This document shows positions 3,168 to 34,000 of a stretch of 37,419 nucleotides of DNA, piece by piece. Each line of letters begins with the position of its first letter. Position 1 is the stretch's first letter. The stretch lies in the UHGV virus genome UHGV-0125336; one strand, given 5' to 3'. The notes under the pieces were generated by a model. It saw nothing but the letters and a program-made list of their open reading frames with translations, did not search any database and was not told the DNA's origin. Source of the DNA: a virus. Both the position numbers and the translations under genes were made by a program.

Positions 3168-3178
3168 AGGGCGTTGTG

Positions 3179-3531: not shown

Positions 3532-3616
3532 CAGAGCAAATAAAACCACAGATTAAATAAGAAAATGTAAAACAATCCGCATTCGCGGAGGTATTCGCAC
3601 ACGCCAAGGAGGCGTA

Positions 3617-4062: not shown

Positions 4063-4358
4063 GCGCCATCAACCACCAGGAATTACGCGAACTGGCGACT
4101 GACCTGCAACGAATGGCAACGCCTCAAAAATTACTGGCGTTTCGCGCAATGCTCTCGCCGTCTGCTGTGCTGGCGCTGCTGGATGAGCTGGAGCACGCCA
4201 GAACCACACCTCTCGCCATTCGCCTGACGCTCCGTCATGAAATCGAGGATTTCTGCGCGACGTTGGAGGCGCCAGGCGAACCGGAAACGCCGGAAGCAAT
4301 ACAGCAAGAGCTGCTGCAACGCATTGACAAGGTTTTTGATTTTTTTCTGAACCACTAA
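4059..4358 (+). CDS. Phage early protein, unknown function
   Basis: 99-aa acidic, helical ORF. Start overlaps the upstream stop. Confidence 0.5.
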   Translation: MSAINHQELRELATDLQRMATPQKLLAFRAMLSPSAVLALLDELEHARTTPLAIRLTLRHEIEDFCATLEAPGEPETPEAIQQELLQRIDKVFDFFLNH

Positions 4359-4480
4359 GAAACCAGAACATGCACACACAAAAAAACCGCTTGCCATGCC
4401 GCAATCAGTCAGGTTACATTTCCGCTGCACCTCACAAAACGGGTGCCGGGTTTCGCAGCCTGCTGACTACACAAGCGCAC

Positions 4481-19949: not shown

Positions 19950-20577
19950 GGCATTCACCCGCGTGGATGAAACCTTTGAGGCCATCCGCGACAGCCTGAA
20001 TCAGCAGGCCATCAATAACATCGCCAGAAAGCTGGCACAGGATTTACGCCGCGCCCAGCAGGCACGTATCCGGTCACAGAAAGCGCCGGACGGGACCGCA
20101 TGGACACCACGCAGACGCCGCGTAACCCGGATACAGGAGCGCATTCGCTTTATCTGGAATAACGAAGCACGCACGCTGAAAAACTGGCATCACGACACGG
20201 GGAAATACGGGCGAACCATTACCGGGTGGGATGAGGATAAAAACAATATCCGCACGTTTTACCGGGATGACATCGACCGTTTTCTGGAAATACGCACCCG
20301 GCGCATCAACCAGGACAGCACAAAGCGCGTCCCCATGTTCGTAAAACTGCGCACCACCCGCTACCTGAAAGCACGAGCGGATGCTTCCGGTGTGACGGTG
20401 GGTTACAGCGGTGTGGCTGCACGTATTGCACGCGTTCATCAGTTCGGTGAGCGCGATCAGGTTGCGCCAGGCATTTTCACCGATTACCCGGTACGTGAGC
20501 TGTTGGGCATCAGTCAGGCAGATGAACGCCTGATTTATAACACGGTGCTGGGCCGGATTGCGGAGGCTGTACGGTGA
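19933..20577 (+). CDS. S: Tail completion protein, P2 gpS-like
   Basis: 214-aa ORF overlapping the R end. Confidence 0.8.
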   Translation: MKAMDKAFTRVDETFEAIRDSLNQQAINNIARKLAQDLRRAQQARIRSQKAPDGTAWTPRRRRVTRIQERIRFIWNNEARTLKNWHHDTGKYGRTITGWDEDKNNIRTFYRDDIDRFLEIRTRRINQDSTKRVPMFVKLRTTRYLKARADASGVTVGYSGVAARIARVHQFGERDQVAPGIFTDYPVRELLGISQADERLIYNTVLGRIAEAVR

Positions 20578-21155
20578 GCGCAGAACTCATGCGACTGCTG
20601 AGCAACATCATCCGCACCGGGATCATCTCTGAAGTTGATGAGAAGTCCTGGCGCGTGCGCGTTCGCAGCGGCGAACTGGAAACAGGCTGGTTGCGCTGGA
20701 ACACCACGCGCGCGGGAGCCTTCAATGTGTGGCTGCCGCCATCACCCGGCGAACAGGTGGTAATTGCCTGCATTGGCGGCAACCCGGAAACCGCCATGAT
20801 AATTGGCAGCCTGTGGAGTGATGCCAATCCGGCCCCCGGCAAAAGCCTGAAGGAAATCGTGGTCACAGCGCCTGACGGCGCGGTGTTCCGCTACGATGCG
20901 GACGCAGGTGCACTGAGCGCCACCGGAATCAGAACCGCCACCATTCAGGCCGGAACGGGCGTGACGCTGGACACCCCCACCGTCACCTGCACAAATCATC
21001 TGAAGACGGCAACGTTTGAGGTGACAGAAGGCGGAACCCTGAGCGGCAATATCTCGCACAGCGGCGGTGATTTCACCTCCAACGGTGTGACGCTGCACAC
21101 ACACAAACACAGTGGCGTGAAGAGCGGCGGCGACACCACAGGAGGCCCGCAGTGA
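20574..21155 (+). CDS. V: Baseplate spike/assembly protein, P2 gpV-like
   Basis: 193-aa ORF with GTG start overlapping the S stop. Confidence 0.8.
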   Translation: MSAELMRLLSNIIRTGIISEVDEKSWRVRVRSGELETGWLRWNTTRAGAFNVWLPPSPGEQVVIACIGGNPETAMIIGSLWSDANPAPGKSLKEIVVTAPDGAVFRYDADAGALSATGIRTATIQAGTGVTLDTPTVTCTNHLKTATFEVTEGGTLSGNISHSGGDFTSNGVTLHTHKHSGVKSGGDTTGGPQ

Positions 21156-21517
21156 GTGCACGTTTTCTGGGGATGAACCCCGAAGCCACCGGCACGCTCA
21201 GCGACACGGACCATCTGTGGAACAGCGTGAGGGATATTCTGCTGACACCGCTCGCCAGCCGGGTGATGCGCCGGGAATACGGCAGCCTGCTGCCGGATTT
21301 GCTGGATGCACCGATGAATGCCACAACCCGCCTTCAGTGCATGAGTGCCGTGGTGATTGCCCTGACGCAGTGGGAGCCGCGCATCGCCCTGAATGCCGTT
21401 GACATTCAGTGGGAGGCGGGCGGAAAAGCCGTTATCACCCTCACCGGCACACTGACAGAAAGCATGGAAACCGTACAGAACACACTGACACTCGGGAGCG
21501 ACAATGCCAGCCGTTGA
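21152..21517 (+). CDS. W: Baseplate wedge protein, P2 gpW-like
   Basis: 121-aa ORF with GGAGG RBS, overlapping the V stop. Confidence 0.8.
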   Translation: MSARFLGMNPEATGTLSDTDHLWNSVRDILLTPLASRVMRREYGSLLPDLLDAPMNATTRLQCMSAVVIALTQWEPRIALNAVDIQWEAGGKAVITLTGTLTESMETVQNTLTLGSDNASR

Positions 21518-22400
21518 CCTGTCGGAACTGCCGACACCACAGATTATTGAAACGCCGGATTTTGAAGTCATCCTGGAAGACGTAAAAGAAAGCATGATTA
21601 CGGCATTCCCGCAGACACAACAGGCTGCCGTCCGGTCAGCCATGGCGCTCGAGTCCGAACCGCTCACGGTCATCGCTCAGGCATTTGCACTGCGTGAGTT
21701 GCTGCTTCGCCAGCGAATTAATGAAGGGGCAGCGGCCTGTATGCTGAGCCATTCCACAGGTGACGACCTGGATAACCTCGCCGCCAACATGAACACCGCG
21801 CGACTGGTCATCACACCGGCCACGGACACCGCGGAGGCCGTCATGGAAAGCGACACAGCCCTGCGGCTGCGTGCACAGTCTGCGTTTGATGGCCTCAGCG
21901 TGGCCGGTCCCACCGGGGCGTATGAATATTTTGCCCGCAGTGCCAGCGGTCAGGTGGCGGACGCACGCGCTACCAGCCCCGCACCGGCGGAAGTGGTGGT
22001 GGCGGTGCTGTCCACGGAAGGCGACGGTACGGCGACCGAAGCACTCCTGACGACGGTCAGAAATGCGCTGAATGCCGAAGACGTTCGCCCGGTCGGTGAC
22101 CGTCTGACGGTGCAGAGCGCAGAAATCATCCGGTATCAGATTGATGCCCGGCTTTACTTTTATCCGGGGCCGGAGTCGGAACCTATCCTGAATGCCGCCA
22201 GAAACAATCTGGAAACCTGGCTTGCCGAACAGGGCAAAATCGGTCGCGATGTGGCGCTTTCCGCCATCATGGCCGCGCTGCATGTTCAGGGCGTTCAGCG
22301 CGTGGAACTGACCAGCCCCGCACAGAATATTGTTATCAGTGATGTGCAGTCAGCGTACTGCACATCGTTTTCGGTCAGCGCAGGGGGAACCAATGAGTGA
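21504..22400 (+). CDS. J: Baseplate protein, P2 gpJ-like
   Basis: 298-aa ORF in the J position. Confidence 0.85.
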   Translation: MPAVDLSELPTPQIIETPDFEVILEDVKESMITAFPQTQQAAVRSAMALESEPLTVIAQAFALRELLLRQRINEGAAACMLSHSTGDDLDNLAANMNTARLVITPATDTAEAVMESDTALRLRAQSAFDGLSVAGPTGAYEYFARSASGQVADARATSPAPAEVVVAVLSTEGDGTATEALLTTVRNALNAEDVRPVGDRLTVQSAEIIRYQIDARLYFYPGPESEPILNAARNNLETWLAEQGKIGRDVALSAIMAALHVQGVQRVELTSPAQNIVISDVQSAYCTSFSVSAGGTNE

Positions 22401-22932
22401 ACCGTCACTTCTCCCCCCTTCAGCCAGCGATTTCATGCGCTGCGTGGAGCGGGGGGCTACCCGGTTGTCAGCATTACCTGTCAGCCTTAATCAGCTCTGG
22501 GATCCTGACACCTGCCCGGTGGCCCTGCTGCCTTATCTGGCGTGGGCGCTGTCCGTGGACAGGTGGGATCGTGACTGGACGGAAGAAACAAAGCGCCAGG
22601 TGATCCGTGATGCCTGGGCAATCCACCGCCATAAGGGAACCATCAGCGCCATCAGGCGTGTGGTTGAACCCTTTGGCTATGTCATTAACGTGACGGAATG
22701 GTGGGAAACCGGCGATCCGCGAGGGACTTTCCGGCTGGACATCGGTGTACTGGATACCGGTATCTCCGCTGCGACCTATACCGAGCTGGAGCGCCTCATC
22801 GATGATGCCCGCCCGGTGAGTCGCCATCTTACCGGATTAAATATTGTGCAGGACATTTACGGGGATGTGTACGCCGGCGGGGCGGTATTTTGCGGCGACA
22901 CTATTGAGGTTTATCCGGGAGAGGTTGTCTGA
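22393..22932 (+). CDS. I: Baseplate protein, P2 gpI-like
   Basis: Start at MSEPSLLPP (22393), overlapping the J stop. The ORF-track start at 22330 is likely too far upstream. Confidence 0.75.
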   Translation: MSEPSLLPPSASDFMRCVERGATRLSALPVSLNQLWDPDTCPVALLPYLAWALSVDRWDRDWTEETKRQVIRDAWAIHRHKGTISAIRRVVEPFGYVINVTEWWETGDPRGTFRLDIGVLDTGISAATYTELERLIDDARPVSRHLTGLNIVQDIYGDVYAGGAVFCGDTIEVYPGEVV

Positions 22933-22934
22933 AT

Positions 22935-25781
22935 ATGAAATATGGTGCCATTATCACAGCGGCTGGCGCTGCCAGGCTTGCTGCAGCCACAACAGCAACA
23001 GGCCAGAAGCTGAACATCACTCACATGGCCGTGGGAGATGGTAATGGAAATCTCCCGGAACCATCGGCCTCACAGACCGCCCTGAACAATGAAGTCTGGC
23101 GCGGGACGCTGAATAAAATTACACAGAACAGCAAAGCGCCAAATCAGGTGATTGCGGAACTGGTTATTCCTCCGGAAGTTGGCGGCTTCTGGATGCGGGA
23201 GCTGGGGTTGTATGACGACAGCGGAACCCTGATTGCCGTCGCCAATATGGCAGAAAGCTACAAGCCGTTACTCGCCGAAGGTTCGGGGCGCTCAATGGTC
23301 TGCCGCATGTTCATCATCATCAGCGATATGAACGCGGTGAATCTGTCAGTGGACAGCAGCGTCATTGCCGCAACACAGGAATATGTTAACGAAGCCATCT
23401 CCGGCCTGCACCGCGCCATCATTGATGATGTGGTTCTTCAGCATAAAGTTGTCCACGATATTGACTACACCGGGATTTTTGACGGCGCGGATAAGATGAG
23501 CCAGGGGTTCTGTATCTGTGATACGCCGCAGGGAACCCGAATGTTTCTGCATCAGCCTGTATCGGGTGGCGTAAGGATTGTTGAAACGACATTTAACCCT
23601 GACGGAGAAAACGAAAACCCGACGGTCATTTCGTTTTCTCCCGTTTTCGCTGATATTGGTCACCAGAGTATCGGGGCCGTATGTGAAGACGGTCGCGTGA
23701 TGCTGTATACCCCGACCGCTGACGGCAAGGGTGTGAATATCATCAACTGGAATGGGGCTGACACCAGTCTGACAGATGTCACCCGTACGGAGATTTTCAC
23801 CTCTGACTTTTTTACCGGGGATGAAATTATAACGGTGGCATTGTCGGTAGACGGAAGCCTGTTGATTGTTCAGTCAAGTAATGAAGCCGTCCATCTTCAT
23901 TACAACAGGGATGACCGCCGCACAGTTTATGTTTTCGATCGCGCTTCTCTGACGTTTAAACACCGGATTTATCTGTCCACCCAGTCAATGGTGTCGCAGG
24001 CATTTCAGGGGATGGCCAGCGATGGTCATTATCTGTTTGCTTATTACGGTTATACAGGCGTATTTCTGACTCACCGCATTGTTGTATATAACCTGTCAAC
24101 GGGCGAAGTTGTCAGACAGTTCAATGTGGATGGCGTTCGTGCCAGGTATGGCCGCCAGAAAATGCTGGGGAATGCAGAGCTGGGGTATCCCGTTTTGCAG
24201 GAAGCCGAAGGGCTGGCTCTTCATAACGGAAAACTGTATCTGCTCGATATGGATTTCTGGTGTCAGACAGCCGATGTGGTTTCTTTTGAGGGGGCATACT
24301 TTGCAGCACGTGCAACAAATTTTTCTGGCCGTTCCCCGGTGAATCCATCTTACTGGACGCCTACAGCATATGGAACGGCGGCTGCAACGAAATATGATGC
24401 CACGAAGTCTTATACGTGTGGCGTGGCGACAAAACGCAGCAAAGCTGTGGTTTCCGTGGAGGCTTACGACGGCACAGGCTATCTGGTGGACTCCGGCGTG
24501 GCGTTTCCTGACAGCCATGCCAGCCTTTTTCTGAGTCCCAATGCTGTAAATATAGCCCTGTCACCCAATGAAGACTTCCAGGTGGCAGCCTATGAGCAGA
24601 ATCTGCGCTCGCATCGCCCGTTATTTGAGGTCAGAAAGGAGGCTCCGGATACAGACACTTCTGCTGCTGTTTTTCGTTTGTACGGGGATGCGTTCCGAAC
24701 CGGAGAATACACAGGCCGCTTCGTTCAGTGGAAACACCGACTGAACGCCGTGCACGATTGTCTGGAAATACGCGCTGACGTGGATTTGTTGAGCGGTGGC
24801 GGAATTAACCTTTACTCAATGAACGATACTCAGTCGGCGGGACGCACAAGGCTTTATTGCACCGATGGCAGTGAGACCTGGTCTGTATTATTGAGTCCGG
24901 TCTCGCCGTCATTTCATCCCGACCAGGACAAGGCAATGAATCTGGGGTCATCGCCAAATCGCTGGAATGTGGCATACCTGCAGGGCGTGAATATTAAATC
25001 GGATGACGAAACCCAGAAGCGCATGGCCATCAGCACCACGCTGAAGGCGGGAGCTTTCCAGGTATCAACAGCCGGGAATCTGGGTATTTATGACGATTCT
25101 GCTGACGCTTATGTAATTGCAGCCCGTAGTGACGGCACTGCATTCATGCAGATGGATACAGATATTAACGGTGCATTCCGGCCATCGGTTAACAATACCA
25201 GCGACCTGGGTGCGCCCAACAAAGCGTTCCGGAGCGTGTATCTCTGCAACTCGCCGACCGTTGTGTCGGATGCGACGTTAAAGGATACACCGCGCGATGC
25301 GACAACAGCCGAAAACGCGGCATTTGCAGAAATAGCACGACTTCCGGGCGTGTGGCGCTGGTTACAGAGAATTGAGGAGGAGGGCGAGGACGCGCGTCTG
25401 CACGCCGGGCCGACAGTCCAGGCCGCGATAGCGGTGATGGAGAAACACGGTCTGGACTGGCGGAAATACAGCGCATTTTGTCTGGATTCGTGGGAAGCGG
25501 AGGAGGCACAGTACGAAGATATGCCGGAAGAGTATGAAGATATTCCGGTTCAGCCTGCGATTTATTCGGATGAAGGGGAGCTGTTGAGCGGGACAACCCG
25601 TGTGCTTACCCGACAGGCGGAAAGGGTTCTTGTTCGCCCTGCAACCGAAGCAGGAAGCCGTTATCGCTTCCGGAAAGAGGAGCTTCTCTGGTGGTGTCTG
25701 CGTGCTGTTGTCAGCCAGGTGGATGCGCTGACAGAGAGCATCAGCGCACTTACCCGCCGTGTTGATTTACTGGAGGAATAA
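22935..25781 (+). CDS. H: Tail fibre, P2 gpH-like N-terminus with divergent receptor-binding region and C-terminal intramolecular-chaperone-like domain
   Basis: N-terminal 150 aa conserved gpH anchor. C-terminal 170 aa begin at SDATLKD (25263-25286) and show the auto-cleaving chaperone pattern (..VWRW.., ..GPTVQAAIAVMEKHG.., terminal coiled coil). Confidence 0.85.
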   Translation: MKYGAIITAAGAARLAAATTATGQKLNITHMAVGDGNGNLPEPSASQTALNNEVWRGTLNKITQNSKAPNQVIAELVIPPEVGGFWMRELGLYDDSGTLIAVANMAESYKPLLAEGSGRSMVCRMFIIISDMNAVNLSVDSSVIAATQEYVNEAISGLHRAIIDDVVLQHKVVHDIDYTGIFDGADKMSQGFCICDTPQGTRMFLHQPVSGGVRIVETTFNPDGENENPTVISFSPVFADIGHQSIGAVCEDGRVMLYTPTADGKGVNIINWNGADTSLTDVTRTEIFTSDFFTGDEIITVALSVDGSLLIVQSSNEAVHLHYNRDDRRTVYVFDRASLTFKHRIYLSTQSMVSQAFQGMASDGHYLFAYYGYTGVFLTHRIVVYNLSTGEVVRQFNVDGVRARYGRQKMLGNAELGYPVLQEAEGLALHNGKLYLLDMDFWCQTADVVSFEGAYFAARATNFSGRSPVNPSYWTPTAYGTAAATKYDATKSYTCGVATKRSKAVVSVEAYDGTGYLVDSGVAFPDSHASLFLSPNAVNIALSPNEDFQVAAYEQNLRSHRPLFEVRKEAPDTDTSAAVFRLYGDAFRTGEYTGRFVQWKHRLNAVHDCLEIRADVDLLSGGGINLYSMNDTQSAGRTRLYCTDGSETWSVLLSPVSPSFHPDQDKAMNLGSSPNRWNVAYLQGVNIKSDDETQKRMAISTTLKAGAFQVSTAGNLGIYDDSADAYVIAARSDGTAFMQMDTDINGAFRPSVNNTSDLGAPNKAFRSVYLCNSPTVVSDATLKDTPRDATTAENAAFAEIARLPGVWRWLQRIEEEGEDARLHAGPTVQAAIAVMEKHGLDWRKYSAFCLDSWEAEEAQYEDMPEEYEDIPVQPAIYSDEGELLSGTTRVLTRQAERVLVRPATEAGSRYRFRKEELLWWCLRAVVSQVDALTESISALTRRVDLLEE

Positions 25782-25783
25782 TT

Positions 25784-26068
25784 ATGGACTTAACCCCGGT
25801 GTTCCATGCACTTTGTGCGGTGGCCACTCAGTTTCTGGTAGGTCTTTTTACCGGAAACTGGGCTTACGGAGCGATAGCCGGTTGTACGTTCTTCATTGCG
25901 CGTGAACACACCCAGGCAGAATATCGCTGGATTGAAATGTTCGGGCATGGCAGGCGTATGAATATGCCGTGGTGGGGCGGTTTTGACCCACGCGCGTGGG
26001 ATATGGCAAGTCTGATGGATTTTGCAGTGCCGGTGGTGGCATGTCTGCTGGTCTGGCTGGTCGTATGA
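25784..26068 (+). CDS. Small two-TM membrane protein in the position normally held by gpG
   Basis: 94-aa ORF starting 2 nt after the H stop. Two hydrophobic segments. Not gpG-like. Confidence 0.5.
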   Translation: MDLTPVFHALCAVATQFLVGLFTGNWAYGAIAGCTFFIAREHTQAEYRWIEMFGHGRRMNMPWWGGFDPRAWDMASLMDFAVPVVACLLVWLVV

Positions 26069-26080
26069 CGTAGCAGGAAA

Positions 26081-26105
26081 CAGGGGGATTTGCCCCTGTT
26101 TTTTT
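26081..26105 (+). terminator. Intrinsic terminator of the H operon
   Basis: CAGGGG-GATTTG-CCCCTG hairpin followed by a T7 run. Confidence 0.55.
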
Positions 26106-26222
26106 GTTCAGAATGCAGCCTTCACCATTCGTCTCTAATCGTATTCAGTAATTCGCCCGCAGAAACAAACTAAAATTCATCCCCCACATCACGCCACTGA
26201 AAGCAGACGGTAAACTCCAGAT
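26106..26222 (-). pseudogene. Degenerate remnant of a gpU 3' end
   Basis: About 75-80% identical by eye to 26888..27010 (the intact U 3' end) in the same orientation. Reading frame preserved at the stop (RMVKAAF* versus KMATAAF*), but an in-frame TAG lies upstream. Confidence 0.6.
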
Positions 26223-26525
26223 TTTCAAACCAGCGTCAGAAGTATTTAAATGGCACCAGATGTAATATGCAGGCGATTAATATGGTGTGCTTAAAGATCA
26301 TAAAAGCGGGCAACATTAAAACTCCGGGCTGTGTAAATTACCGCCACTCATAATCAGAGATGAAAACAGAATTAAACTGGCGGCGTGGATTGTATACATA
26401 AAATAAGTTCAGTTGTTGACTTTCACTTCCGTGAGTTGATGAAGGTTATTACAATACACCGGTATGATCTCTCCTCCTTAAAAGGGAGGACTTTTCAGAA
26501 CGCAGAAATTATTTATAATCCCGTA

Positions 26526-26576
26526 GTGTTCTACACATGCCAACATTCTTTGCCCGCCCCGTGCGGGCTTTTTTTT
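26526..26576 (+). ncRNA. Candidate small RNA 1 (about 50 nt)
   Basis: Weak promoter (TTTTCA-N16-TATAAT, -10 at 26514-26519) upstream of a strong terminator (GCCCGC-CCCGT-GCGGGC plus T8, 26552-26576). No convincing ORF. Confidence 0.25.
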
Positions 26577-26666
26577 GCCATAAAGACACAGTAACAAACA
26601 GAATTGTAATCAGAGCAATAAAATCATGAAAAACATTTTCATTGATGACGATAACAATTAAAAATA

Positions 26667-26696
26667 TTGCATTAAATGATTCCCGTTCAATATAAT
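26667..26696 (+). promoter_or_regulatory. Sigma70-like promoter (TTGCAT-N18-TATAAT)
   Basis: -35 TTGCAT at 26667-26672 and -10 TATAAT at 26691-26696. Drives the short transcript ending at the 26740-26763 terminator. Confidence 0.45.
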
Positions 26697-26703
26697 CCCC
26701 CTG

Positions 26704-26763
26704 CAACCAGAAAAATTAAATCTTCACACAATGCATGTTGCCCTCTTTATGAGGGCTTTTTTA
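26704..26763 (+). ncRNA. Candidate small RNA 2 (about 60 nt)
   Basis: Between the TTGCAT/TATAAT promoter and the terminator GCCCTC-TTTAT-GAGGGC plus T6. No ORF. Shares a CACA-ATGC-TTGCCC motif with candidate 1. Confidence 0.35.
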
Positions 26764-26854
26764 TTTCCCGAATATCACCATTGCCATCATCGGGCGATTT
26801 ATATATAGTCAGAATGTATTGACAACATTTTGCTTCTTTTCCATGAAGGCCATA

Positions 26855-26886
26855 AGGGAGTGCTTTTTACACTCCCTCTTTTTTTA
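26855..26886 (+). terminator. Intrinsic terminator abutting the U stop codon
   Basis: AGGGAGTG-CTTTTTA-CACTCCCT followed by a T8 run. Plus-strand oriented. Confidence 0.6.
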
Positions 26887-26887
26887 T

Positions 26888-27352
26888 TCAGAATGCCGCT
26901 GTCGCCATTTTGTCTTTAAGCGTGTTCAGTAATTCGCCCGCAGAAGCAGACTGAAACCTCTCCCTCATATCCTCATCACACCGCTGAAAGCTGATGGAGA
27001 ACTCAATCTTTTTTGCCTTTCCGTAACGATCCAGTTCGGAGCGGGTGGTCTGTAATCCCGTAATCACGTACATTCCGTAAATCTGCCCCGTGCCATCAAT
27101 CAGCGGCCAGGGACATCCTGTGTAGGCCTGGGTGTTCAGTAGTGTCAGCGACACCTCACCGCCGGTAATTTCCGGGTACAGCAAACCGGACAGCGTGATC
27201 TGGTCATCACCTGCGCCGATATACTGCCAGGCCGCAGAGCGGTTAATGCGCTCATTTTTCACATGTCGCCATGTTTTGCTCTGCTGGATCTGCTGATGTG
27301 GCAGCGTGCGCAGCTCAAAAACAAACATGCCGTAGATCATCATCATGGTCAT
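26888..27352 (-). CDS. U: Tail protein, P2 gpU-like
   Basis: ...ITLSGLLYPEITGGEVSL...IDGTG... parallels recalled gpU (...VTLSGTLYPELTGGRLSL...IEGTG...). Confidence 0.85.
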   Translation of the reverse strand: MTMMMIYGMFVFELRTLPHQQIQQSKTWRHVKNERINRSAAWQYIGAGDDQITLSGLLYPEITGGEVSLTLLNTQAYTGCPWPLIDGTGQIYGMYVITGLQTTRSELDRYGKAKKIEFSISFQRCDEDMRERFQSASAGELLNTLKDKMATAAF

Positions 27353-27358
27353 GACTCC

Positions 27359-30199
27359 TCAATCTTTATCGTAAAAACTGCCACGCCCGACACGGGCGCG
27401 CCGTTCCATTTCTGCCCTGACCATTTCACCGACCAGTTTCGCCAGTTCGCGGGGATTCTGCGTAACAACGTTATGCAGATGAACATGAATTTCACCACCA
27501 AATCCGGAGGCAACAGGCTCCCGGTTACGGGAAGTTACAGGAACTGATGCCACTGGAGATCGTATGGCCTCCGCCACCGGGCGGGAGCTGGCCGCAACAA
27601 CAGGGACCAGCGCCGGAGGCAGCGGAGCCGGGACCACGGGTGTGATATTAATTGCGGGGGGCTTACTGACCTGCGCAATCTTCCGCTCCTGCCACTCCCC
27701 ACGAACGGCAAGTGCGCGGGGCAGGTTCTTAAAGACAATATCACCGGGGCCAATGCGTTTTTTCGTCTCATCAACCAGCTTACCTGTGTTATCAGCAATT
27801 TTGCTGAGTCTGCGCAGCGTACCGGTATTGCTGTCTGTGAGTGGTTTATTGTCTTTGGGTTTATCACCTCCCGTGCCATTGCCATTTTCCACAGGCTTCG
27901 GCGGATTGATTTTCGCCAGGTCCCCCTGAAGCAAGGCAACCTTGTCCTGAAGAATGGCCGCACGCTGTGCGTCTTCGATTTTCTTGCGCGCCCTTTCCGC
28001 TTCATCCGGAAGGACGCCAAGTTTTTCAAGTATCCACGCCAGCGTATCCAGCAACATTTTTGCAGGCGTCAGAACAAGCTGTAGCGCGCCACCAAGAGCG
28101 TTACCGAATATCTCGCCAGCACTGGTACATTTATCCAGCGTTTCCTTGCTGGACTCCATCGGTGACAGCAGCGATTTAAACCAGTTAAACACCTGGCTGA
28201 TCCCGCTTCCGATTGCGTCAAAAACAGGACCAAACCGTTCAAAGGTTTCACGCAACGGGTTCAGCCTTTCCATAATCCCGCTGAACACCCCGGCAAAAAA
28301 TGCCCTGATGGGATCCCAGTATTTCCAGATAAGAACGGCAGCTCCGGCAAGCGCAGCCACGATAAGACCAACCGGACTGAACAGCGCCCCGATAGCGCCT
28401 CCCAGCAAAGAAACGGAACCCGTCACCATTCCCCACAGCGCAGGCAACACCCTGACGACATTCATTGACCGGGTAAGAATGTCAAAACCAAGACGCAGGG
28501 TGGCCAGCTTCCCGTAAAGCACCCCAATAACCAGCGACAACGAGCCAATCGTTGCAGTCATTGCCAGCAACGCACCGCCTGCTATCAGTAGCTGGCGCGT
28601 CAGTACCGGATGGGCCTGCGCCAGCGAGGTGATTTTTTCAAGCACCCGCGTGAGCCACTGCGTGACAGAACGCAGCGGACCGTCAACCAGATCACTGATG
28701 CGAATACGAAGACCTTCCCATGCGCTGTCGAGATTTTTCAGGTCCCCATCAAGATTATCGGCCATTACTTTTGCAACGCGATCGGCCTCTCCCCTTGCCC
28801 CCTGCAATTCTCTGGTCAGTTTTTGCAGCTCTCCTGAACCAGCCGCCGCAACAAGCGTCTGCAAACCAACGAACGCCTCTTCTCCGGCGATGTCCTTGAA
28901 GAAGGAGACCTGGTCCACCTGTCCGTATTTTTGTGTCGCCTTATAGAGATCAAGCAGCACATCCTCCATCGGGCGCATTTTGCCTCTGGCGTCAGCAACT
29001 GACACCCCCAGCTCTTTCAGCGCATCAGCCGCAGCTTTTGGCGGTGATGCAAGGCGGGACAGACTTGCGCGCATGGCCGTACCAGCATCGCTTCCACGAA
29101 GACCATTATTGGCAAGCATCCCGGCCATGGCTGCCGCTTCTTCAAGACTGATACCAAGTTTTGCGGCAACCGGACCGGTATACTTCATGGTTTCGCCCAG
29201 CGCGCGTAAATCAGTATTGGTCCGGGTGAATGCCGCTGTCAGCGTATCGCCAACCCGGTCCATTTGATCGGCTGTCAGGTTGAACTGTGTGAGGATATTG
29301 GAGCCTATATCCGCCGTCTCGCCGAGTTCGACGCCACCTGCCAGCGCCATATTAAGAACACCGGGCAATGCGGCCTGAATGGCCTGCGGAGTAAAACCAG
29401 CCATTGCCAGAAAGCTCTGCCCACTGGCGGCATCACTCGCAGTAAACTGTGTTTCAGAACCAAGTTTTAACGCCTGCTCACGCAGCGCCTTAAACTGCGG
29501 GCTGTTTTTGTCGATTCGCGTCAGTGCCTGAACGCGGGACATCTCTTTGCCGAACCCGATCGCAGGCTGCAAAAAACGCCCGGAAGCATAGCCGCCAGCC
29601 GCTGCAGCACCAATTGCCAGCGCACCACCTGTTTTCAGTTTTCCCGCGGTTTCCTGCGCGCGCGAATACCGCTCACGCGCCCGCGTTACACGCGCAAGCG
29701 CCTGCCGTTCGCGTTCAAGCTGGTTGTTGTACTGTTCGGTGCGTCTGATGGCCTGCTGGATTGTGTTATCGCTGCCTGTCAGGGAAATGCCGTGGCGTTT
29801 CAGCTCTCCGCCAAGTTCCCGCATTTTCTGAATTTCCCGTGTGCGCGATTCATTCAGGCGTTCAAGCCGGGTGCTTAACTGCTGCATCAGCTTTTGTTGT
29901 TTTTCGCTGAGCACTGTACCCGTGCGTTGTAACTGATTAAGGGCGTTAAGCTGGCGTCGTGCTTTCACGATGCCAGCATCCGCTTTACTGACAGCGTCGC
30001 GGGCGCGCTCAAATGATCGCGCCTGACGCTCGAGATTTTTGATCGCCCCCTGCGTTCGCTGGATGGAGTCACCAAACTGCCCCATCAGGCGGCGGGCGTT
30101 TTCGGCAGGCCGGGTCAGCCTGTCAACGGCGCTGAAAGCGACCCGGATATCAAGAGTCTTCATTGTCTGCATTCCCGCTGCGAAGTGCCGCCCGCTCAC
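27359..30199 (-). CDS. T: Tail tape-measure protein, P2 gpT-like
   Basis: 946-aa ORF, helix-rich with Ala/Gly-rich hydrophobic central segments, between E/E' and U. Confidence 0.85.
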   Translation of the reverse strand: MSGRHFAAGMQTMKTLDIRVAFSAVDRLTRPAENARRLMGQFGDSIQRTQGAIKNLERQARSFERARDAVSKADAGIVKARRQLNALNQLQRTGTVLSEKQQKLMQQLSTRLERLNESRTREIQKMRELGGELKRHGISLTGSDNTIQQAIRRTEQYNNQLERERQALARVTRARERYSRAQETAGKLKTGGALAIGAAAAGGYASGRFLQPAIGFGKEMSRVQALTRIDKNSPQFKALREQALKLGSETQFTASDAASGQSFLAMAGFTPQAIQAALPGVLNMALAGGVELGETADIGSNILTQFNLTADQMDRVGDTLTAAFTRTNTDLRALGETMKYTGPVAAKLGISLEEAAAMAGMLANNGLRGSDAGTAMRASLSRLASPPKAAADALKELGVSVADARGKMRPMEDVLLDLYKATQKYGQVDQVSFFKDIAGEEAFVGLQTLVAAAGSGELQKLTRELQGARGEADRVAKVMADNLDGDLKNLDSAWEGLRIRISDLVDGPLRSVTQWLTRVLEKITSLAQAHPVLTRQLLIAGGALLAMTATIGSLSLVIGVLYGKLATLRLGFDILTRSMNVVRVLPALWGMVTGSVSLLGGAIGALFSPVGLIVAALAGAAVLIWKYWDPIRAFFAGVFSGIMERLNPLRETFERFGPVFDAIGSGISQVFNWFKSLLSPMESSKETLDKCTSAGEIFGNALGGALQLVLTPAKMLLDTLAWILEKLGVLPDEAERARKKIEDAQRAAILQDKVALLQGDLAKINPPKPVENGNGTGGDKPKDNKPLTDSNTGTLRRLSKIADNTGKLVDETKKRIGPGDIVFKNLPRALAVRGEWQERKIAQVSKPPAINITPVVPAPLPPALVPVVAASSRPVAEAIRSPVASVPVTSRNREPVASGFGGEIHVHLHNVVTQNPRELAKLVGEMVRAEMERRARVGRGSFYDKD

Positions 30200-30368
30200 G
30201 CCAGCTAACCACTTCGCCGGGCGTCATCATGAAGATTTCGGCGGGCGACCAGTTAAAAATGGCGGCAATATCCGCCACAAAGTCTTCTATGTGCTCAAAG
30301 CACACAACCGTGATCAGGCTTCCGTCGCCTGTTCGTTCTTCCCGCCAGAGTCCGCACCGCTCAAAAAA
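30150..30368 (-). CDS. E' extension, reached by programmed -1 frameshift from E (E+E' product)
   Basis: Minus-strand heptamer TTTTTTG (plus coordinates 30362-30368) lies in-frame in E as AAT-TTT-TTG. The -1 frame continues as ERCGLWREER... to a stop at 30150, as in P2 E/E'. Confidence 0.65.
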   Translation of the reverse strand, partial: FFERCGLWREERTGDGSLITVVCFEHIEDFVADIAAIFNWSPAEIFMMTPGEVVSWRERAALRSGNADNEDS

Positions 30369-30679
30369 TTTACGGCAACCACACATAACTGAATAAAGTC
30401 ACGGGATGCCATTTTTTTGATCGTCACTTCATCCAGTCGCGGTGATGTCACGCGTGACAGCAGCGTAAACATGGATTCCGCTTTCAGATTCAGCACATCA
30501 GACAGCGACAAATCTCGCAGAGATCCAGCCTGCTCAATAGCCCCGGTGATCTCCACATACGTGATTTTTTCGCCGCCTCGCTCAATTGGTTGGGTAAGTT
30601 TTACGCCACGCTCACTGGTTTCTTTCACAGTGTCAGTAACTACCGTGTTTTCGGTATCGATGTTTTTCGTCTCTTTCAT
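30314..30679 (-). CDS. E: Tail assembly chaperone, P2 gpE-like
   Basis: 121-aa ORF upstream of T. Contains the slippery site used for E+E'. Confidence 0.8.
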   Translation of the reverse strand: MKETKNIDTENTVVTDTVKETSERGVKLTQPIERGGEKITYVEITGAIEQAGSLRDLSLSDVLNLKAESMFTLLSRVTSPRLDEVTIKKMASRDFIQLCVVAVNFLSGADSGGKNEQATEA

Positions 30680-30733
30680 CAGGAAACTCCTTTCAGTCAG
30701 AGGCGACGCACTGCGCCGCCTGCATATTACTTA

Positions 30734-31246
30734 TCAGCCAAGCCCGAGCGCGGAACGGATGCGATCGGGCACAATGTCCTTGCCGTCCTTCCGGTAAATG
30801 AAGTTCAGCAGGTCAATCTCCCACAACGGGCGATCGTTAACACTCAGCTTGTAGTAGGTGTTTTTAATGGCGTAAGTGTGTGATGTGGCTTCGCCCTGTT
30901 TGGCTTCCCCCATATCAATTTCCGTCACACGTCCGCGCATTTCGACTTCATACAGGTCGCTTTCTGCATCGGTGTAGTATTCACCCGCAAAACGCAGCAG
31001 CGTGCCGTCAATCGTGCCGCCATACTTAAGGAACAGCTCACGAACTGCGCCCCCCATGACAAAGCTCGCATCAAGCGCGGAGTCGTCCAGACCGAGATCA
31101 ATACTTACCGCACCCATCATGCCACCACCCCGGTAGCTGTCGGTTTTGCGCGTCAGCTTAGGCAGAGTGACGGACGTCACCTTACCCACTTCGTTTTCAC
31201 CATCCACAAACAGCGTAAAAAAGCGAAGATGTTTTGGTACAGCCAT
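30734..31246 (-). CDS. FII: Tail tube protein, P2 gpFII-like
   Basis: 170-aa ORF immediately downstream of the sheath gene on the same strand. Confidence 0.85.
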   Translation of the reverse strand: MAVPKHLRFFTLFVDGENEVGKVTSVTLPKLTRKTDSYRGGGMMGAVSIDLGLDDSALDASFVMGGAVRELFLKYGGTIDGTLLRFAGEYYTDAESDLYEVEMRGRVTEIDMGEAKQGEATSHTYAIKNTYYKLSVNDRPLWEIDLLNFIYRKDGKDIVPDRIRSALGLG

Positions 31247-32430
31247 CAGGCACCTCCCAGCACCGCAAATGCGGGACCAAAGAATTCATCAGTAAACGAC
31301 TGGTAAAGCTCCATGTCTTCCAGCGGGGGAACAGGCGTATATTTGTAGCGAATACGCACGCGCCCCTGACGTAAATTCGTGGTGCCGTTATCCACCACGT
31401 CATACCAGCACGACGCCCCAATCAGTTTCCCGGCAGTAACCAGTGAATCCAGTTTTGCCCTGATGGCACTGATAACATCTTTCACGTTCGCAGGCGTCAG
31501 TGGACTGTCGATGGTTTCAAACTGCGCTTCCGCAATTGAATCAGCCAGCACCTGTGCGGTTCGGGTATACACCTCAAAGATGTAGGCGTTCGTTTCCGGT
31601 GTGCGGTTGCCCCAGAAGCGGAACCCGTTGCGACGAATAATGGTCGTGATTTCTTTGTTGTTGAGGCTGTTGGCATCACTGTCTTCGGCCTGCAACGACC
31701 AGAACACATGCCTGGACATCCCCAGCACATTTTTAACCGGAACGTTGGACAGCGATTTGTGCCAGCCCTGCTCATGGTCAATGTACGCACGAAGGCCGCA
31801 CGCATAGGCAGGCGCGGGGAACGTTTCGTTTTTGCCACTTTTCGGGTTGTAGGCGATGAAGTCCGGCCATAAGAGCATCACCTCACGTTCGTTGAATTTC
31901 TGGCGGTAGGTAATCGCCTCAGCCATCGTGTTACAGCCGTGACATGAGGCATACACAAACGCGCGCAGTTTACCCGCAATCACGCACAGGGATTTTGTTA
32001 CCGCCTCCGTGTCCAGCTCCGGCGCGGCCAGAATACGCGGACGGTATCCGATGCTTTCATCCTGCTCTGCAACAAGCAGCGCATACATCCCCGTATAGCT
32101 GCCGTCAGATTCAGAACCACCGATAACCAGTTGATCCTGCGTTTTTCCGTCTTCTTCTTTGTGTTCAGCCACGCGAACGACGATCACCTTTGTGCTCACC
32201 TGGTCTGCGATGGCCTTAAGCGCACGATAAAGCGTCCCCGTTGTTCCGCATTTTCCCAGCACGTCATTGACGCGGGTCAGCAGTGTGGGCTTGTTCAGCG
32301 GGAACAGCTCCGCATCCGCATCATCCGCCGTTGCCACGATACCGATAACACTGGAATCAACATCGTTAATCGCTGTTACCAGGTCGGTATTTTCCGTAAC
32401 ACGGGCACCATGAAAACGAGTTTCACTCAT
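31246..32430 (-). CDS. FI: Tail sheath protein, P2 gpFI-like
   Basis: ...DADAELFPLNKP...RAF.Y......EA..YRQ.F..RE.M..WPDF.A....EQGWHK(T/S)LSNV...FWGNRT...YTRTAQV...YTPVPPLE... matches recalled gpFI. Confidence 0.9.
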   Translation of the reverse strand: MSETRFHGARVTENTDLVTAINDVDSSVIGIVATADDADAELFPLNKPTLLTRVNDVLGKCGTTGTLYRALKAIADQVSTKVIVVRVAEHKEEDGKTQDQLVIGGSESDGSYTGMYALLVAEQDESIGYRPRILAAPELDTEAVTKSLCVIAGKLRAFVYASCHGCNTMAEAITYRQKFNEREVMLLWPDFIAYNPKSGKNETFPAPAYACGLRAYIDHEQGWHKSLSNVPVKNVLGMSRHVFWSLQAEDSDANSLNNKEITTIIRRNGFRFWGNRTPETNAYIFEVYTRTAQVLADSIAEAQFETIDSPLTPANVKDVISAIRAKLDSLVTAGKLIGASCWYDVVDNGTTNLRQGRVRIRYKYTPVPPLEDMELYQSFTDEFFGPAFAVLGGA

Positions 32431-32586
32431 AGCTTCAGCCCCTTGTATCCGTTAAATGATTCGGCAACAATCATCACCCACCACGCGCGTAATCTCACCC
32501 CTGCGCCGTTCTCCCGCCACGGCGACAACAAAAAGCAGTAACCCCCTACGCACGCACATGCGACCATGCCGCACAGGGAGGGAACA

Positions 32587-33697
32587 GATGACCGATACCA
32601 CCATGCAATTGCTCAGTCAGAGCACAGACCCCGTGAAAATGCCGGATTTTGATATTCTCGCGGAGGGGGAAACACTGTCCGGCGTGGCAGAGCGCCTGAT
32701 GAGCCTGTCACTGACCGACAACCGGGGATTTGAAGCGGACCAGCTCACCATCACGCTGGATGATGCGGATGGTCAGTTGCAGCTACCGCCACGGGGCGCG
32801 CGCCTGACGGTTCTCATTGGCTGGAAAGGAGAACCGCTGACAGAAAAAGGCACTTACATTGTTGATGAAATCGCACACGAAGGACCGCCGGACAGGCTGA
32901 CTGTTTCAGCCAGAAGCGCAGATTTTCGGGATGAATTTAACGTTAAACGTGAGGTGTCCTGGCATGATGTGACCGTTGAGCGCGTGGTATCCGCCATCGC
33001 TCATCGGTACGGTCTGAAACCACAAATCAGCGAAATGCTGATGGATATTGAAATCGACCACGCCGACCAGACCGAAGAAAGCGACATGTCCTTCCTTACG
33101 CGCATGGCGGAAATGCTGGGCGCAATCACTACGGTAAAAAGCGGTAATCTGTTATTCATCATGCCAGGCGGTGGCGTGAACGCACAAGGCCAGCCGTTGC
33201 CCTCGTTCGCCATCACGCGCAGCAGTGGCGATCGCCATCAGTTCCGCATTGCTGACCGCGAAGCGTATACGGGGGTACGCGCTTACTGGCTTGATCTTAA
33301 TTACGGGAAAAAGAAAAAAGTCAGCGTGAAACGCCGCAAACCGCCAAAACCCAAAAAGGAGAAAAGCAGCAGCCGTGAAGGTGATTATATGGAAGGCGCG
33401 GAAGGCAATGTGTTTGTGTTACGCAAGGCTTATCAGAACGAGCAGGCAGCAAGACGCGCAGCGGCGGCAAAGTGGCAGCAGCTACAACGCGGAGCCGCAT
33501 CATTTTCCATCACGCTGGCGCGTGGACGTGCAGAACTCTACCCCGAAATGCATGGCACGGTAACAGGATTTAAAAGCGAGATTGATAATCAGGACTGGAT
33601 TATTGCGAAAGCCGAGCACACCATTGATAACAGCGGCTTTACCACGCAGCTTGAGCTTGAAGCAAAAATCCCGGAATGGATAGCAGAAACAGAGTGA
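32587..33697 (+). CDS. D: Tail/late protein, P2 gpD-like
   Basis: ...LAEGETLSGVAERLMSLSLTDNRG.EADQL.I.L.D.DG.L.LP.RGARLTVLIGW.GE.LT... matches recalled gpD. Start at 32587 after an AGGGAGG RBS. On the opposite strand to FI. Confidence 0.85.
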
Positions 33698-33739
33698 GCA
33701 ACTTAGAATAGCGGCAGCACCACGTTAAGGGAGGTCGCT

Positions 33740-34000
33740 ATGTTCCGTTGTCCGCTTTGTGGCGCATCTGCCCGTATCCGCACCAGTCGTTCGGAAAATG
33801 ATTCAAACACCGTACGGAAAAAATATTACCAGTGTAACAACCTGGAATGCGGCATAAGTTTCTCAACACTGGAAGCTTTCCATAAATTCACATCGAAACA
33901 CGCCCCCGGCGTTCACTCTTCAGAAGGTATCCCGTGGCATGAGTTGCCAGCTTCACACAGGGGAAACAATCAGATGAGTTTGCCTTTACCTCAGAATTAA
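33740..34000 (+). CDS. ogr: Ogr/Delta-family zinc-finger late-gene activator
   Basis: MFRCPLCG...YYQCNNLEC: a CxxC...CxxxxC zinc finger at the N-terminus as in P2 Ogr (MFHCPLC...YHQCQNVNC as recalled). Longer C-terminal tail than P2 Ogr. Confidence 0.75.
   Translation: MFRCPLCGASARIRTSRSENDSNTVRKKYYQCNNLECGISFSTLEAFHKFTSKHAPGVHSSEGIPWHELPASHRGNNQMSLPLPQN

What the first reader, a model, noticed from the sequence alone, without database searches (positions are those of the whole stretch)
22935..26068. Tail fibre with a built-in C-terminal chaperone domain and no gpG; a small membrane protein sits in the G position
P2-like phages normally encode a separate tail-fibre assembly chaperone (G) after H. 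Here H ends in an SDATLKD-initiated domain that resembles the auto-cleaving intramolecular chaperones of endosialidase-type fibres, and the central 500 aa are unlike P2 H, so receptor specificity is likely different. The co-translated 94-aa two-TM protein could be a superinfection-exclusion or receptor-masking factor.
Basis: partly seen in the sequence, partly recalled or inferred. Interest (0 to 1): 0.5.

Follow-up and report, generated by a model that had tools for sequence, protein, structure and literature searches.

The report
Self-chaperoning swapped tail spike, plus passenger gene
A P2-like E. coli prophage has replaced the outer part of its tail fibre with a receptor-binding spike from another phage type; the spike carries its own cleavable folding domain, so the usual helper gene has decayed, and a very common but unstudied small membrane-protein gene came along with it.

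Summary
ORF 22935-25781 (948 aa) has a P2 gpH N-terminal anchor (aa 1-158). The rest (aa 159-947) is 78% identical to tailspike gp75 of the N4-like podophage Pollock. That part holds a five-bladed beta-propeller receptor-binding domain, a stalk/tip, and a C-terminal Peptidase_S74 intramolecular chaperone domain starting at S778-D-A-T-L-K783, scored above Pfam's cutoff and homologous to T5 pb1 and the K1F endosialidase chaperone.

No intact gpG/Tfa gene exists in the window. Decayed relics of G (5' start 26267-26322; 3' end 26353-26505) lie downstream, and a sibling prophage keeps H plus an intact Tfa. So the self-chaperoning cassette displaced a conventional H-G pair.

The 94-aa ORF (25784-26068) is real and translationally coupled to H. 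It belongs to PHROG 1443, a strongly conserved family of predicted three-helix membrane proteins with no known function. Homologs occur in 35% of complete E. coli genomes. In phages the gene sits at the end of receptor-binding gene clusters of many types, with or without S74 or Tfa. It also occurs in non-phage chromosomal contexts. It is therefore not a G substitute. A receptor-specific masking role is unlikely, and a general envelope or exclusion role remains untested.

Overall: an ordinary modular tail-fibre swap, plus one uncharacterised gene family worth testing.

The parts
22935..23408 (+). H N-terminal baseplate-anchor domain (aa 1-158), P2 gpH type
   Evidence: PF12571 Phage_tail_fib aa 2-148, E 3.6e-54. 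65% identical to P2 H aa 26-158. Follows the P2 I homolog (PF09684).
23409..24488 (+). Five-bladed beta-propeller receptor-binding domain (about aa 159-518)
24489..25265 (+). Stalk and distal tip of the mature spike (about aa 519-777)
   Evidence: Beta-rich but low pLDDT in the monomer model. aa 708-777 align with the pre-cleavage tip of T5 pb1 (4uw8). A weak End_tail_spike match at aa 659-684 is below the cutoff.
25266..25781 (+). C-terminal intramolecular chaperone domain (Peptidase_S74), aa 778-948 plus stop. Predicted cleavage before or at S778; dyad S778/K783
   Evidence: PF13884, 38.1 bits against cutoff 22. phmmer hits to 4uw8 (5e-15), 7y5s, 6eu4, 9vvr, 3gw6 and 3gud, with SDATLK aligned to (S/A)DARLK. 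SDxxxK is found in every homolog checked that retains this C-terminal region except P0168; the shorter or truncated ones (P0169-P0171) lack it.
25772..25777 (+). Shine-Dalgarno GGAGGA of orf94, inside the last H codons
   Evidence: Read directly from the sequence. DNA homology to lambdoid orf94 homologs begins exactly here.
25784..26068 (+). orf94: small predicted three-helix membrane protein, PHROG 1443
   Evidence: phrog_1443, E 1.9e-55. 576 90%-identity clusters and 442 50%-identity clusters, all stand-alone. 23 invariant positions across 40 diverse members. AF2 pLDDT 93.6. No hit in Pfam, NCBIfam or PADLOC.
26083..26107 (+). Intrinsic terminator ending the V-W-J-I-H-orf94 transcription unit
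   Evidence: GC-rich hairpin followed by a T run.
26094..26225 (-). Relic copy of the 3' end of gene U
   Evidence: 85% identical to 26874-26945 within the window. 74% identical to L013 5520-5657, the U 3' end.
26236..26322 (+). Relic of the 3' end of a conventional H and the 5' start of G (truncated 28-codon ORF from 26267)
   Evidence: 81% identical to the H/G junction of a P2-type phage, NC_070904 (L012 3501-3588), and 78% to SfMu.
26353..26505 (+). Relic of the 3' end of G/Tfa
   Evidence: tblastn: Tfa of sibling prophage L013, aa 138-165, 64% identical, E 1.9e-6. DNA 26353-27359 is 88% identical to L013 5001-6004, where the tfa gene ends at 5153.
26888..27352 (-). Intact gene U, first gene of the inverted FI-U tail block (boundary of the locus)
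   Evidence: PF06995 Phage_P2_GpU, E 9.5e-40. tblastn with P2 U.

Best explanation
The locus is the product of a receptor-binding-protein cassette swap in a P2-like prophage. The resident H gene kept its N-terminal baseplate anchor (aa 1-158). Everything distal was replaced by a Pollock-type spike: a five-bladed beta-propeller receptor-binding domain, a stalk/tip, and a C-terminal S74 intramolecular chaperone domain. By analogy with K1F endosialidase and T5 pb1, the chaperone domain should drive trimer folding of the stalk. It should then cut itself off at S778, using K783 as the general base. Virions would then carry H aa 1-777 (roughly 85 kDa, estimated from residue count), with a free fragment of about 19 kDa left behind. 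Because folding is self-contained, the separate assembly chaperone G became dispensable and has decayed to two short relics downstream. The 94-aa ORF arrived as the last gene of the cassette. It is translated from the H late transcript (SD inside H, ATG 3 nt after the stop, terminator 15 nt after its own stop). It encodes a conserved small inner-membrane protein of a family that rides at the end of receptor-binding gene clusters in many temperate phages. It is an accessory passenger, not a fibre chaperone. My best guess is that it acts at the cell envelope in a way that does not depend on the particular receptor, for example blocking secondary infection or re-adsorption. Status of the steps: the domain architecture, the homologies, the absence and relics of G, and the gene coupling are shown. 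Autocleavage, the dispensability of G and the envelope role of orf94 are inferred. Confidence is about 0.85 for the H/G part and about 0.3 for any specific orf94 role.
For: H architecture. The same distal module is fused to three different anchors: PF12571 (P2 H), PF18668 (TSP1/gp66 N) and PF03906 (T7 fibre N). There is a GC drop inside H. No Tfa gene is found. G and H relics lie downstream. Sibling prophage L013 has the same gene order but an intact H plus Tfa. Sibling L014 carries a different cassette in the same slot, fibre + 92 aa + orf94-like, again followed by a U-3' relic. E. coli B Rac shows the same pattern, with a truncated tfa pseudogene after an orf94-like gene. orf94 coupling and terminator. 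Family breadth and conservation. Phage contexts: phage 21, Gally, phiHAP-1, Citrobacter, Comamonas, Aeromonas HP1-like and a 108-kb lambdoid-tailed phage carrying ParA. In P2-like phages the slot between G and FI is a known moron position (PMC3573123).
Against: Autoproteolysis is not demonstrated; an S74 hit and an SDxxxK motif do not prove activity. The stalk preceding the domain is modelled poorly, so a triple-beta-helix substrate is not shown. It is not known whether this prophage makes virions. For orf94, no similarity to any characterised protein was found. No sigma-70-like promoter was found upstream of it, so expression in the lysogen, which a classical exclusion gene would need, is unsupported here. 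Cellular homologs next to Pirin, DNA ligase and PNPase genes suggest a housekeeping-type biochemical activity unrelated to phage exclusion.
Confidence: 0.8

Rival explanations
1. orf94 is a superinfection-exclusion or receptor-masking factor matched to this fibre's receptor. It would be made with or after the fibre and would hide or alter the receptor that H recognises.
For: It is adjacent to the receptor-binding gene, like T5 llp or lambdoid cor (general knowledge). It is a membrane protein. It moves together with receptor-binding cassettes.
Against: Homologs 75-90% identical follow unrelated receptor-binding proteins: Stf-like fibres, a P22-type tailspike and the propeller spike. More distant members follow a pectate-lyase spike, a GpJ-like protein and an H-like fibre without S74. 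A receptor-specific factor should co-vary with the receptor-binding protein. There is no lipobox and no similarity to PADLOC models. There are non-phage chromosomal homologs. No promoter for lysogenic expression was found in this window.
Confidence: 0.12
2. orf94 (with the 92-aa ORF in lambdoid cassettes) is a non-canonical tail-fibre assembly or maturation factor that functionally replaces Tfa/G.
For: In two independent places a cassette ending in an orf94-like gene is followed by a truncated Tfa relic: this window and E. coli B Rac. Phage-21-type cassettes have a fibre with no S74 and no Tfa, but do have the 92-aa ORF and an orf94-like gene. The gene is tightly coupled to the fibre gene.
Against: phiHAP-1 has both an annotated Tfa and an orf94 homolog. 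P22-type tailspikes, known not to need a separate chaperone (general knowledge), are also followed by it, and in Gally it lies behind a terminator. Cellular homologs occur far from any phage genes. An integral membrane protein is an unlikely chaperone for a cytoplasmic trimeric fibre. Here the S74 domain already supplies that function.
Confidence: 0.08
3. orf94 is a host-derived accessory gene (moron) with a general cell-envelope or physiological function that benefits the lysogen. It is parked at the end of the tail-fibre cluster only because that is a permissive insertion site.
For: P2-like phages have a recognised moron slot between G and FI (PMC3573123). In Gally the gene follows a terminator, as a separate unit. 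The family has cellular members in Aeromonas (Pirin-linked in several species) and in Alphaproteobacteria. It is present in 1887 of 5426 complete E. coli genomes, with up to 7 copies.
Against: In this window it has no detectable promoter of its own and is coupled to a late structural gene. It travels with receptor-binding cassettes rather than inserting independently.
Confidence: 0.3
4. The prophage is defective and H/orf94 are decaying remnants with no current function.
For: Relics and pseudogene fragments lie just downstream. The ST131 copy L003 has a shortened D gene. The tail block is inverted relative to P2.
Against: H is an intact 948-aa ORF, conserved at 99-100% in 58 genomes, and represented by a 609-member cluster. 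In this window D is a full-length ORF. All P2 structural genes searched for are present. The inverted block is shared by sibling prophages and is a lineage trait.
Confidence: 0.1

Closest known systems
Escherichia phage Pollock gp75 tail spike (N4-like podophage, KM236242)
   Same: aa 159-947 of H are 78% identical to gp75 aa 157-944. This covers the propeller domain, the stalk/tip and the S74 chaperone domain with the identical VVSDATLKD site.
   Different: The N-terminal anchor differs: Pollock has PF18668 Tail_spike_N and this protein has the P2 gpH N-terminal domain. Pollock has no orf94 homolog after gp75; a terminator follows, then lysis genes on the other strand.
C-terminal intramolecular chaperone domains of K1F endosialidase (3GW6) and T5 L-shaped tail fibre pb1 (4UW8); Pfam PF13884 / MEROPS S74
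   Same: Position at the C-terminus of a receptor-binding protein, the SDxxxK Ser-Lys motif, and sequence homology over about 110-155 residues.
   Different: The mature part is a propeller spike rather than a sialidase or a pb1 fibre. Cleavage has not been shown for this protein. The last 85 or so residues (acidic linker plus a C-terminal helix) are not covered by the solved structures.
P2 H-G tail fibre and assembly chaperone pair
   Same: Same genomic slot after V-W-J-I, and a homologous N-terminal 158 aa.
   Different: The distal 790 aa are unrelated. G is reduced to relics of 56 and about 150 nt. The FI-U operon is inverted.
Staphylococcus phage phi11 receptor-binding protein Gp45 (5EFV); Pfam PF21311 Phage_RBD_prop
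   Different: Only 13% sequence identity. The Pfam model does not reach its cutoff. The host and the ligand (wall teichoic acid) do not apply to E. coli.
Phage 21 gp24 'putative membrane protein' (UMO75439) and other PHROG 1443 members
   Same: 90% identical to orf94 and in the same position as last gene of the fibre cluster.
   Different: It follows an Stf-type side fibre and a 92-aa ORF rather than an S74 spike. No function is known for any member.
Receptor-binding-gene-linked exclusion proteins (T5 Llp, lambdoid Cor, HK97 gp15), cited from general knowledge
   Same: Small envelope proteins encoded next to tail or receptor-binding genes.
   Different: There is no sequence or fold similarity. 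orf94 has no lipobox. It is conserved across phages with different receptors and tail types.

Membership tests
Peptidase S74 / C-terminal intramolecular chaperone domain (PF13884) | Match to the family model above the curated threshold | tested here: met
   38.1 bits against cutoff 22, aa 778-840.
Peptidase S74 / C-terminal intramolecular chaperone domain (PF13884) | Catalytic Ser-Lys dyad, S-D-x-x-x-K, at the start of the domain | tested here: met
   S778 and K783. The motif aligns with ADARLK of 4uw8 (which I recall, from memory and not checked here, to be the non-cleaving Ser-to-Ala form), SDARLK of 7y5s and SDARKK of 6eu4. It is found in the homologs that retain this C-terminal region, except P0168.
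Peptidase S74 / C-terminal intramolecular chaperone domain (PF13884) | Sits at the C-terminus of a trimeric fibre or spike, directly after a beta-helical stalk or tip that it helps to fold | tested here: inconclusive
   The position is right, and aa 708-777 align with the pb1 tip. But the monomer model of aa 519-777 has pLDDT below 50.
Peptidase S74 / C-terminal intramolecular chaperone domain (PF13884) | Autoproteolytic release from the mature protein | not testable with these tools
   Needs protein chemistry, such as virion MS or S778A/K783A mutants.
P2 gpH-type tail fibre | N-terminal tail-collar/baseplate domain PF12571, encoded after gpI | tested here: met
   E 3.6e-54. The I homolog lies immediately upstream.
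P2 gpH-type tail fibre | Distal shaft/tip homologous to P2 H and dependent on gpG | tested here: not met
   No similarity beyond aa 156.
Tail-fibre assembly chaperone (gpG/Tfa) | An intact ORF homologous to a Tfa anywhere in the window | tested here: not met
   tblastn with four Tfa queries gives only a 28-aa relic. None is annotated in the ST131 record L003, whose H/orf94 region is 100% identical to the window. The end ORFs of the window are integrase, repressor, Cox, RES and others.
Phage five-bladed propeller receptor-binding platform (PF21311) | Five-bladed beta-propeller fold similar to phi11 Gp45 | tested here: met
Phage five-bladed propeller receptor-binding platform (PF21311) | Match to the Pfam model above threshold | tested here: not met
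   Not reported for H. Pollock gp75 scores 13.6 bits against cutoff 23.7.
PHROG 1443 (small membrane protein, unknown function) | Full-length match to the family profile | tested here: met
   E 1.9e-55, aa 1-94 against profile positions 1-94 of 97.
Known superinfection-exclusion / receptor-masking proteins (Llp, Cor, Imm, gp15, Sie) | Sequence or fold similarity to a characterised member, or a lipoprotein signal | tested here: not met
   No PADLOC, Pfam or NCBIfam hit. No PDB or BFVD fold match. C11 is not conserved and is not in a lipobox.
Known superinfection-exclusion / receptor-masking proteins (Llp, Cor, Imm, gp15, Sie) | Blocks adsorption or DNA entry of the cognate phage | not testable with these tools
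   Needs plating and adsorption assays.
Moron (independently transcribed accessory gene) | Own promoter and terminator, separate from the flanking late genes | tested here: inconclusive
   A terminator is present after orf94. No promoter-like site was found in the last 480 nt of H, and the ATG lies 3 nt after the H stop. In Gally a terminator separates the gene from the tailspike.

The most novel reading that the evidence does not exclude
PHROG 1443 / orf94 could be a new, receptor-independent class of phage-carried inner-membrane factor that travels with receptor-binding cassettes across myo-, sipho- and podoviruses. Possible roles are a general block to secondary DNA entry, or a modulator of envelope-glycan assembly. 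It would derive from an unstudied cellular membrane-protein family, and it is present in about a third of E. coli genomes.
Probability: 0.2. Interest if true: 0.65.

Novelty: new member of a known kind. Interest (0 to 1): 0.35.

Why it matters
For the fibre, this is a clean and datable example of how temperate P2-like phages change host range. They import a complete self-folding spike from a virulent podophage lineage, after which the helper chaperone gene decays. That is useful for predicting the host range of prophages in ST131-type strains and for engineering tailocins or phages without having to co-transfer a chaperone. For orf94, a 94-aa gene found in 1887 of 5426 complete E. coli genomes, always annotated 'hypothetical', always at the tip of receptor-binding gene clusters and with 23 invariant residues, is a cheap and well-defined target for functional work.

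Tried and rejected
2. Foldseek of the orf94 model against PDB and BFVD gave nothing significant. Pfam, NCBIfam and PADLOC also gave nothing, including for distant cellular members.
3. I tested whether orf94 is tied specifically to S74-bearing fibres. Three of about five E. coli cassette types do have an S74 protein immediately upstream. Phage-21-type, P22-type, Citrobacter, Comamonas and Aeromonas contexts do not. The lambdoid S74 proteins are also unrelated to the H domain by BLAST. Rejected as a rule.
4. I considered the minus-strand FI-U block a sign of a broken prophage. Rejected, because sibling prophages share it.
5. Rfam on 25700-27000 found only sub-threshold noise.
6. Literature searches found nothing on this fibre type in P2-like phages or on the orf94 family. 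Only the general moron-slot statement was useful.
7. My regex check to name which upstream ORFs are DNA ligases failed. Only the Pfam counts are used.
8. The promoter scan upstream of orf94 homologs in P22-like phages was not above chance.
Full report
OBSERVATION. H is 22935..25781 (+), 948 aa, and a 94-aa ORF is at 25784..26068 (+). The H stop (TAA, 25779-25781) is followed after two bases by the ATG. A GGAGGA Shine-Dalgarno at 25772-25777 lies inside the last H codons. A hairpin plus T-run terminator follows at 26083-26107. The region is 100% identical in several E. coli chromosomes, including O25b:H4-ST131 isolates. 58 of 5426 complete genomes carry at least 80% of it. The surrounding window is a P2-like prophage: integrase, C-like repressor, Cox, replication gene, portal, terminase, capsid, lysis, V-W-J-I-H, D and ogr.

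THE FIBRE. Pfam places the P2 gpH N-terminal domain (PF12571) at aa 2-148 (E 3.6e-54). It places Peptidase_S74, 'chaperone of endosialidase' (PF13884), at aa 778-840, with 38.1 bits against a curated cutoff of 22.

phmmer against PDB sequences finds the T5 L-shaped tail fibre pb1 (4uw8, 5e-15), Klebsiella phage fibre 7y5s, spikes 6eu4 and 9vvr, the K1F endosialidase chaperone 3gw6 (1.5e-5) and phi29 gp12 3gud. S778-D-A-T-L-K783 aligns with their (S/A)-D-A-R-L-K site. That is the Ser-Lys dyad arrangement established for this family (general knowledge of the K1F and T5 work; also summarised in bioRxiv 10.64898/2026.05.19.726188). The motif is found in the homologs that retain this C-terminal region, with one exception, P0168.

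Only aa 24-156 resemble P2 H, at 65% identity. From aa 159 to 947 the protein is 78% identical to tailspike gp75 of the N4-like podophage Pollock. Pollock's own N-terminus is a different anchor, PF18668.

The central-domain family is small, 54 clusters. The same distal module occurs behind three different anchors: P2 H, TSP1/gp66-N and T7 fibre-N. GC content falls from about 0.60 in the baseplate genes to about 0.51 inside H.

So H is a chimeric receptor-binding protein with four parts: a P2 anchor, a propeller binding domain, a stalk/tip, and a cleavable chaperone. Whether the propeller only binds or also degrades a surface glycan cannot be decided here.

NO G, BUT ITS REMAINS. tblastn with P2 G finds nothing in the window; the best E is 0.8. 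The 788 bp between orf94 and gene U (26100-26887, GC 0.41) is not empty, though.

- 26236-26322 is 81% identical to the junction 'last 46 nt of H / first 41 nt of G' of a P2-type phage, and 78% to SfMu. It leaves a 28-codon stub beginning MQAIN...
- 26353-26436 translates to 28 residues that are 64% identical to aa 138-165 of the Tfa of a sibling prophage (E 1.9e-6). DNA homology to that sibling runs on through the end of its tfa gene into U.
- 26094-26225 is a second, degraded copy of the 3' end of U.

The sibling prophage (E. coli strain 135, L013) has the same gene order, with an intact 1079-aa H followed by an intact 187-aa Tfa.

The simplest history is this. A fragment '[distal H with S74]-orf94-terminator-[start of U]' from a related phage was spliced into a resident H-G locus. 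G, no longer needed, then lost its middle. Another sibling (L014) carries a lambdoid-type cassette in the same slot, fibre + 92 aa + orf94-like, again followed by a U-3' relic. In E. coli B the Rac prophage has stf-remnant + 92 aa + orf94-like + a truncated tfa pseudogene + pinR.

THE 94-aa ORF. It matches PHROG 1443 end to end (1.9e-55), a family of unknown function. No Pfam, NCBIfam or PADLOC model matches it or its distant relatives.

The family is large: 576 clusters at 90% identity and 442 at 50%. All members are stand-alone proteins of about 70-146 aa. The family is tightly conserved. Forty members from Escherichia, Aeromonas, Comamonas, Leclercia, Citrobacter and others share 23 invariant positions, including D2, H8, Q16, R40, E41, Q44, E46-W49, the M-P-W-W-G-G-F block, D79, P83 and C87.

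AlphaFold2 gives a confident model (pLDDT 93.6) of three helices: 4-23, 26-53 and 74-93. Residues 4-38 and 77-94 are hydrophobic, and all Lys/Arg lie in the 40-70 loop. The phage 21 homolog is annotated as having two TM segments, so the topology is open. Fold searches against PDB and viral models give nothing significant.

Homologs at 85% or more nucleotide identity occur in 1887 of 5426 complete E. coli genomes. The median is 2 copies and the maximum 7, and every listed hit is annotated 'hypothetical protein'. 518 IMG/VR viral contigs encode one.

In phages the gene is almost always the last gene of the receptor-binding cluster:
- after the side tail fibre and a 92-aa ORF in phage 21 and many lambdoids;
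- after Stf + 93 aa + a short S74-bearing protein in other lambdoids;
- after the tailspike in P22-like phages, where in Gally it sits behind a terminator;
- after fibre + Tfa and before the sheath gene in Halomonas phiHAP-1;
- after a pectate-lyase spike in Citrobacter;
- after a GpJ-like protein in Comamonas;
- overlapping the end of an H-like fibre without S74 in an Aeromonas HP1-like prophage;
- in a 108-kb lambdoid-tailed phage that carries ParA.

The family is also cellular. In several Aeromonas species it sits next to a Pirin gene with no phage genes nearby. In Alphaproteobacteria its upstream neighbours include NAD-ligase, PNPase and RNase PH domains.

WHAT THIS MEANS FOR orf94. It is not a stand-in for G. 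It co-exists with an annotated Tfa in phiHAP-1 and follows spikes that need no chaperone. Here the S74 domain already does that job.

It is unlikely to mask a specific receptor. Near-identical copies accompany unrelated receptor-binding proteins on three tail morphotypes. It does move with receptor-binding cassettes, and in this window it is expressed from the late H message, with no promoter-like site found upstream.

The slot between G and FI is a recognised moron position in P2-like phages (PMC3573123). I therefore rate it as an accessory inner-membrane protein of cellular origin that phages carry at the tip of the fibre cluster. The most likely role is a receptor-independent action at the envelope, such as general exclusion, anti-readsorption or glycan-assembly modulation. 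This is inference, with about 0.3 confidence in any one role.

COMPARISON AND NOVELTY. S74 intramolecular chaperones on fibres and spikes are well known (K1F, T5 pb1, Kp7, Acinetobacter spikes). This exact protein family already has its own PHROG, 19921 'tail spike protein'. Modular swapping of receptor-binding modules between phage types is textbook. The fibre is thus a new member of a known kind. The added value is the documented decay of G after the arrival of a self-chaperoning spike, and a 78%-identical module shared between a temperate myovirus and a virulent N4-like podovirus. The orf94 family is the only really open item. It is abundant, conserved, positionally constrained and unstudied in the searched literature.

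VERDICT. Interest is 0.35: the mechanism on the fibre side is ordinary, and the gene family is a modest but concrete lead.

Noticed in passing
window 26888-32430 (minus strand), against 20574-25781 and about 32600-34000 (plus strand): The FI-FII-E-E'-T-U tail block is inverted relative to P2, while D and ogr keep the P2 orientation. About 170 bp separate the divergent FI and D starts. Sibling prophages L013 and L014 share this arrangement, so it is a lineage trait and not damage.
   Followed up: partly
window 26100-26887: AT-rich spacer (GC 0.41) holding relics of U, H and G, plus four plus-strand terminator-like hairpins and several promoter-like sites. No Rfam family reaches threshold. About 330 bp (26506-26854) remain unexplained apart from homology to the same spacer in sibling prophages.
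   Followed up: partly
L167 (E. coli B Rac prophage) 2955-4403: A stf remnant, a 92-aa ORF, an orf94-like gene and then a truncated tail-fibre-assembly pseudogene before pinR. This is the same 'cassette arrives, Tfa decays' pattern as in the window.
   Followed up: partly
L055 5286-5990 and L057 4918-5958 (lambdoid viral contigs): Short proteins of 234 and 346 aa with a Peptidase_S74 domain lie between an Stf-like fibre/93-aa ORF and the orf94 homolog. This would be a second, small S74-bearing fibre component in lambdoid phages. They are unrelated by BLAST to the H chaperone domain.
   Followed up: partly
L002 4689-4967, L009 4210-4488 (phage 21 gp23): A 92-aa acidic ORF (PHROG 1361, unknown function) always precedes the orf94 homolog in lambdoid cassettes whose fibre has neither S74 nor Tfa. 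It is a candidate small fibre chaperone or adaptor.
   Followed up: no
L005 5990-10645 (Aeromonas rivipollensis chromosome): The cellular orf94 homolog sits after a Pirin gene. Divergently, it sits next to a RIO1/Kdo-kinase-like gene and two lipid A acyltransferase genes, which is a weak hint of an LPS-related role.
   Followed up: no
window 34741-35574: A RES-domain ORF (277 aa, PF08808, E 4.5e-12) lies in the low-GC right end of the prophage, after ogr. It may be a toxin of a RES-Xre type module carried as cargo.
   Followed up: no
L003 5532-6807 (ST131 copy of the prophage): ParM and a partition/stability protein are annotated inside the early region of this P2-like prophage.
   Followed up: no
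L003 29923-31919, against window 32456-33697: The ST131 record has a shortened D (266 aa), a pseudogene fragment and an extra 1023-bp gene. The window has a full-length D ORF (413 aa by mechanical call). The window therefore comes from a variant with an intact tail hub gene.
   Followed up: no
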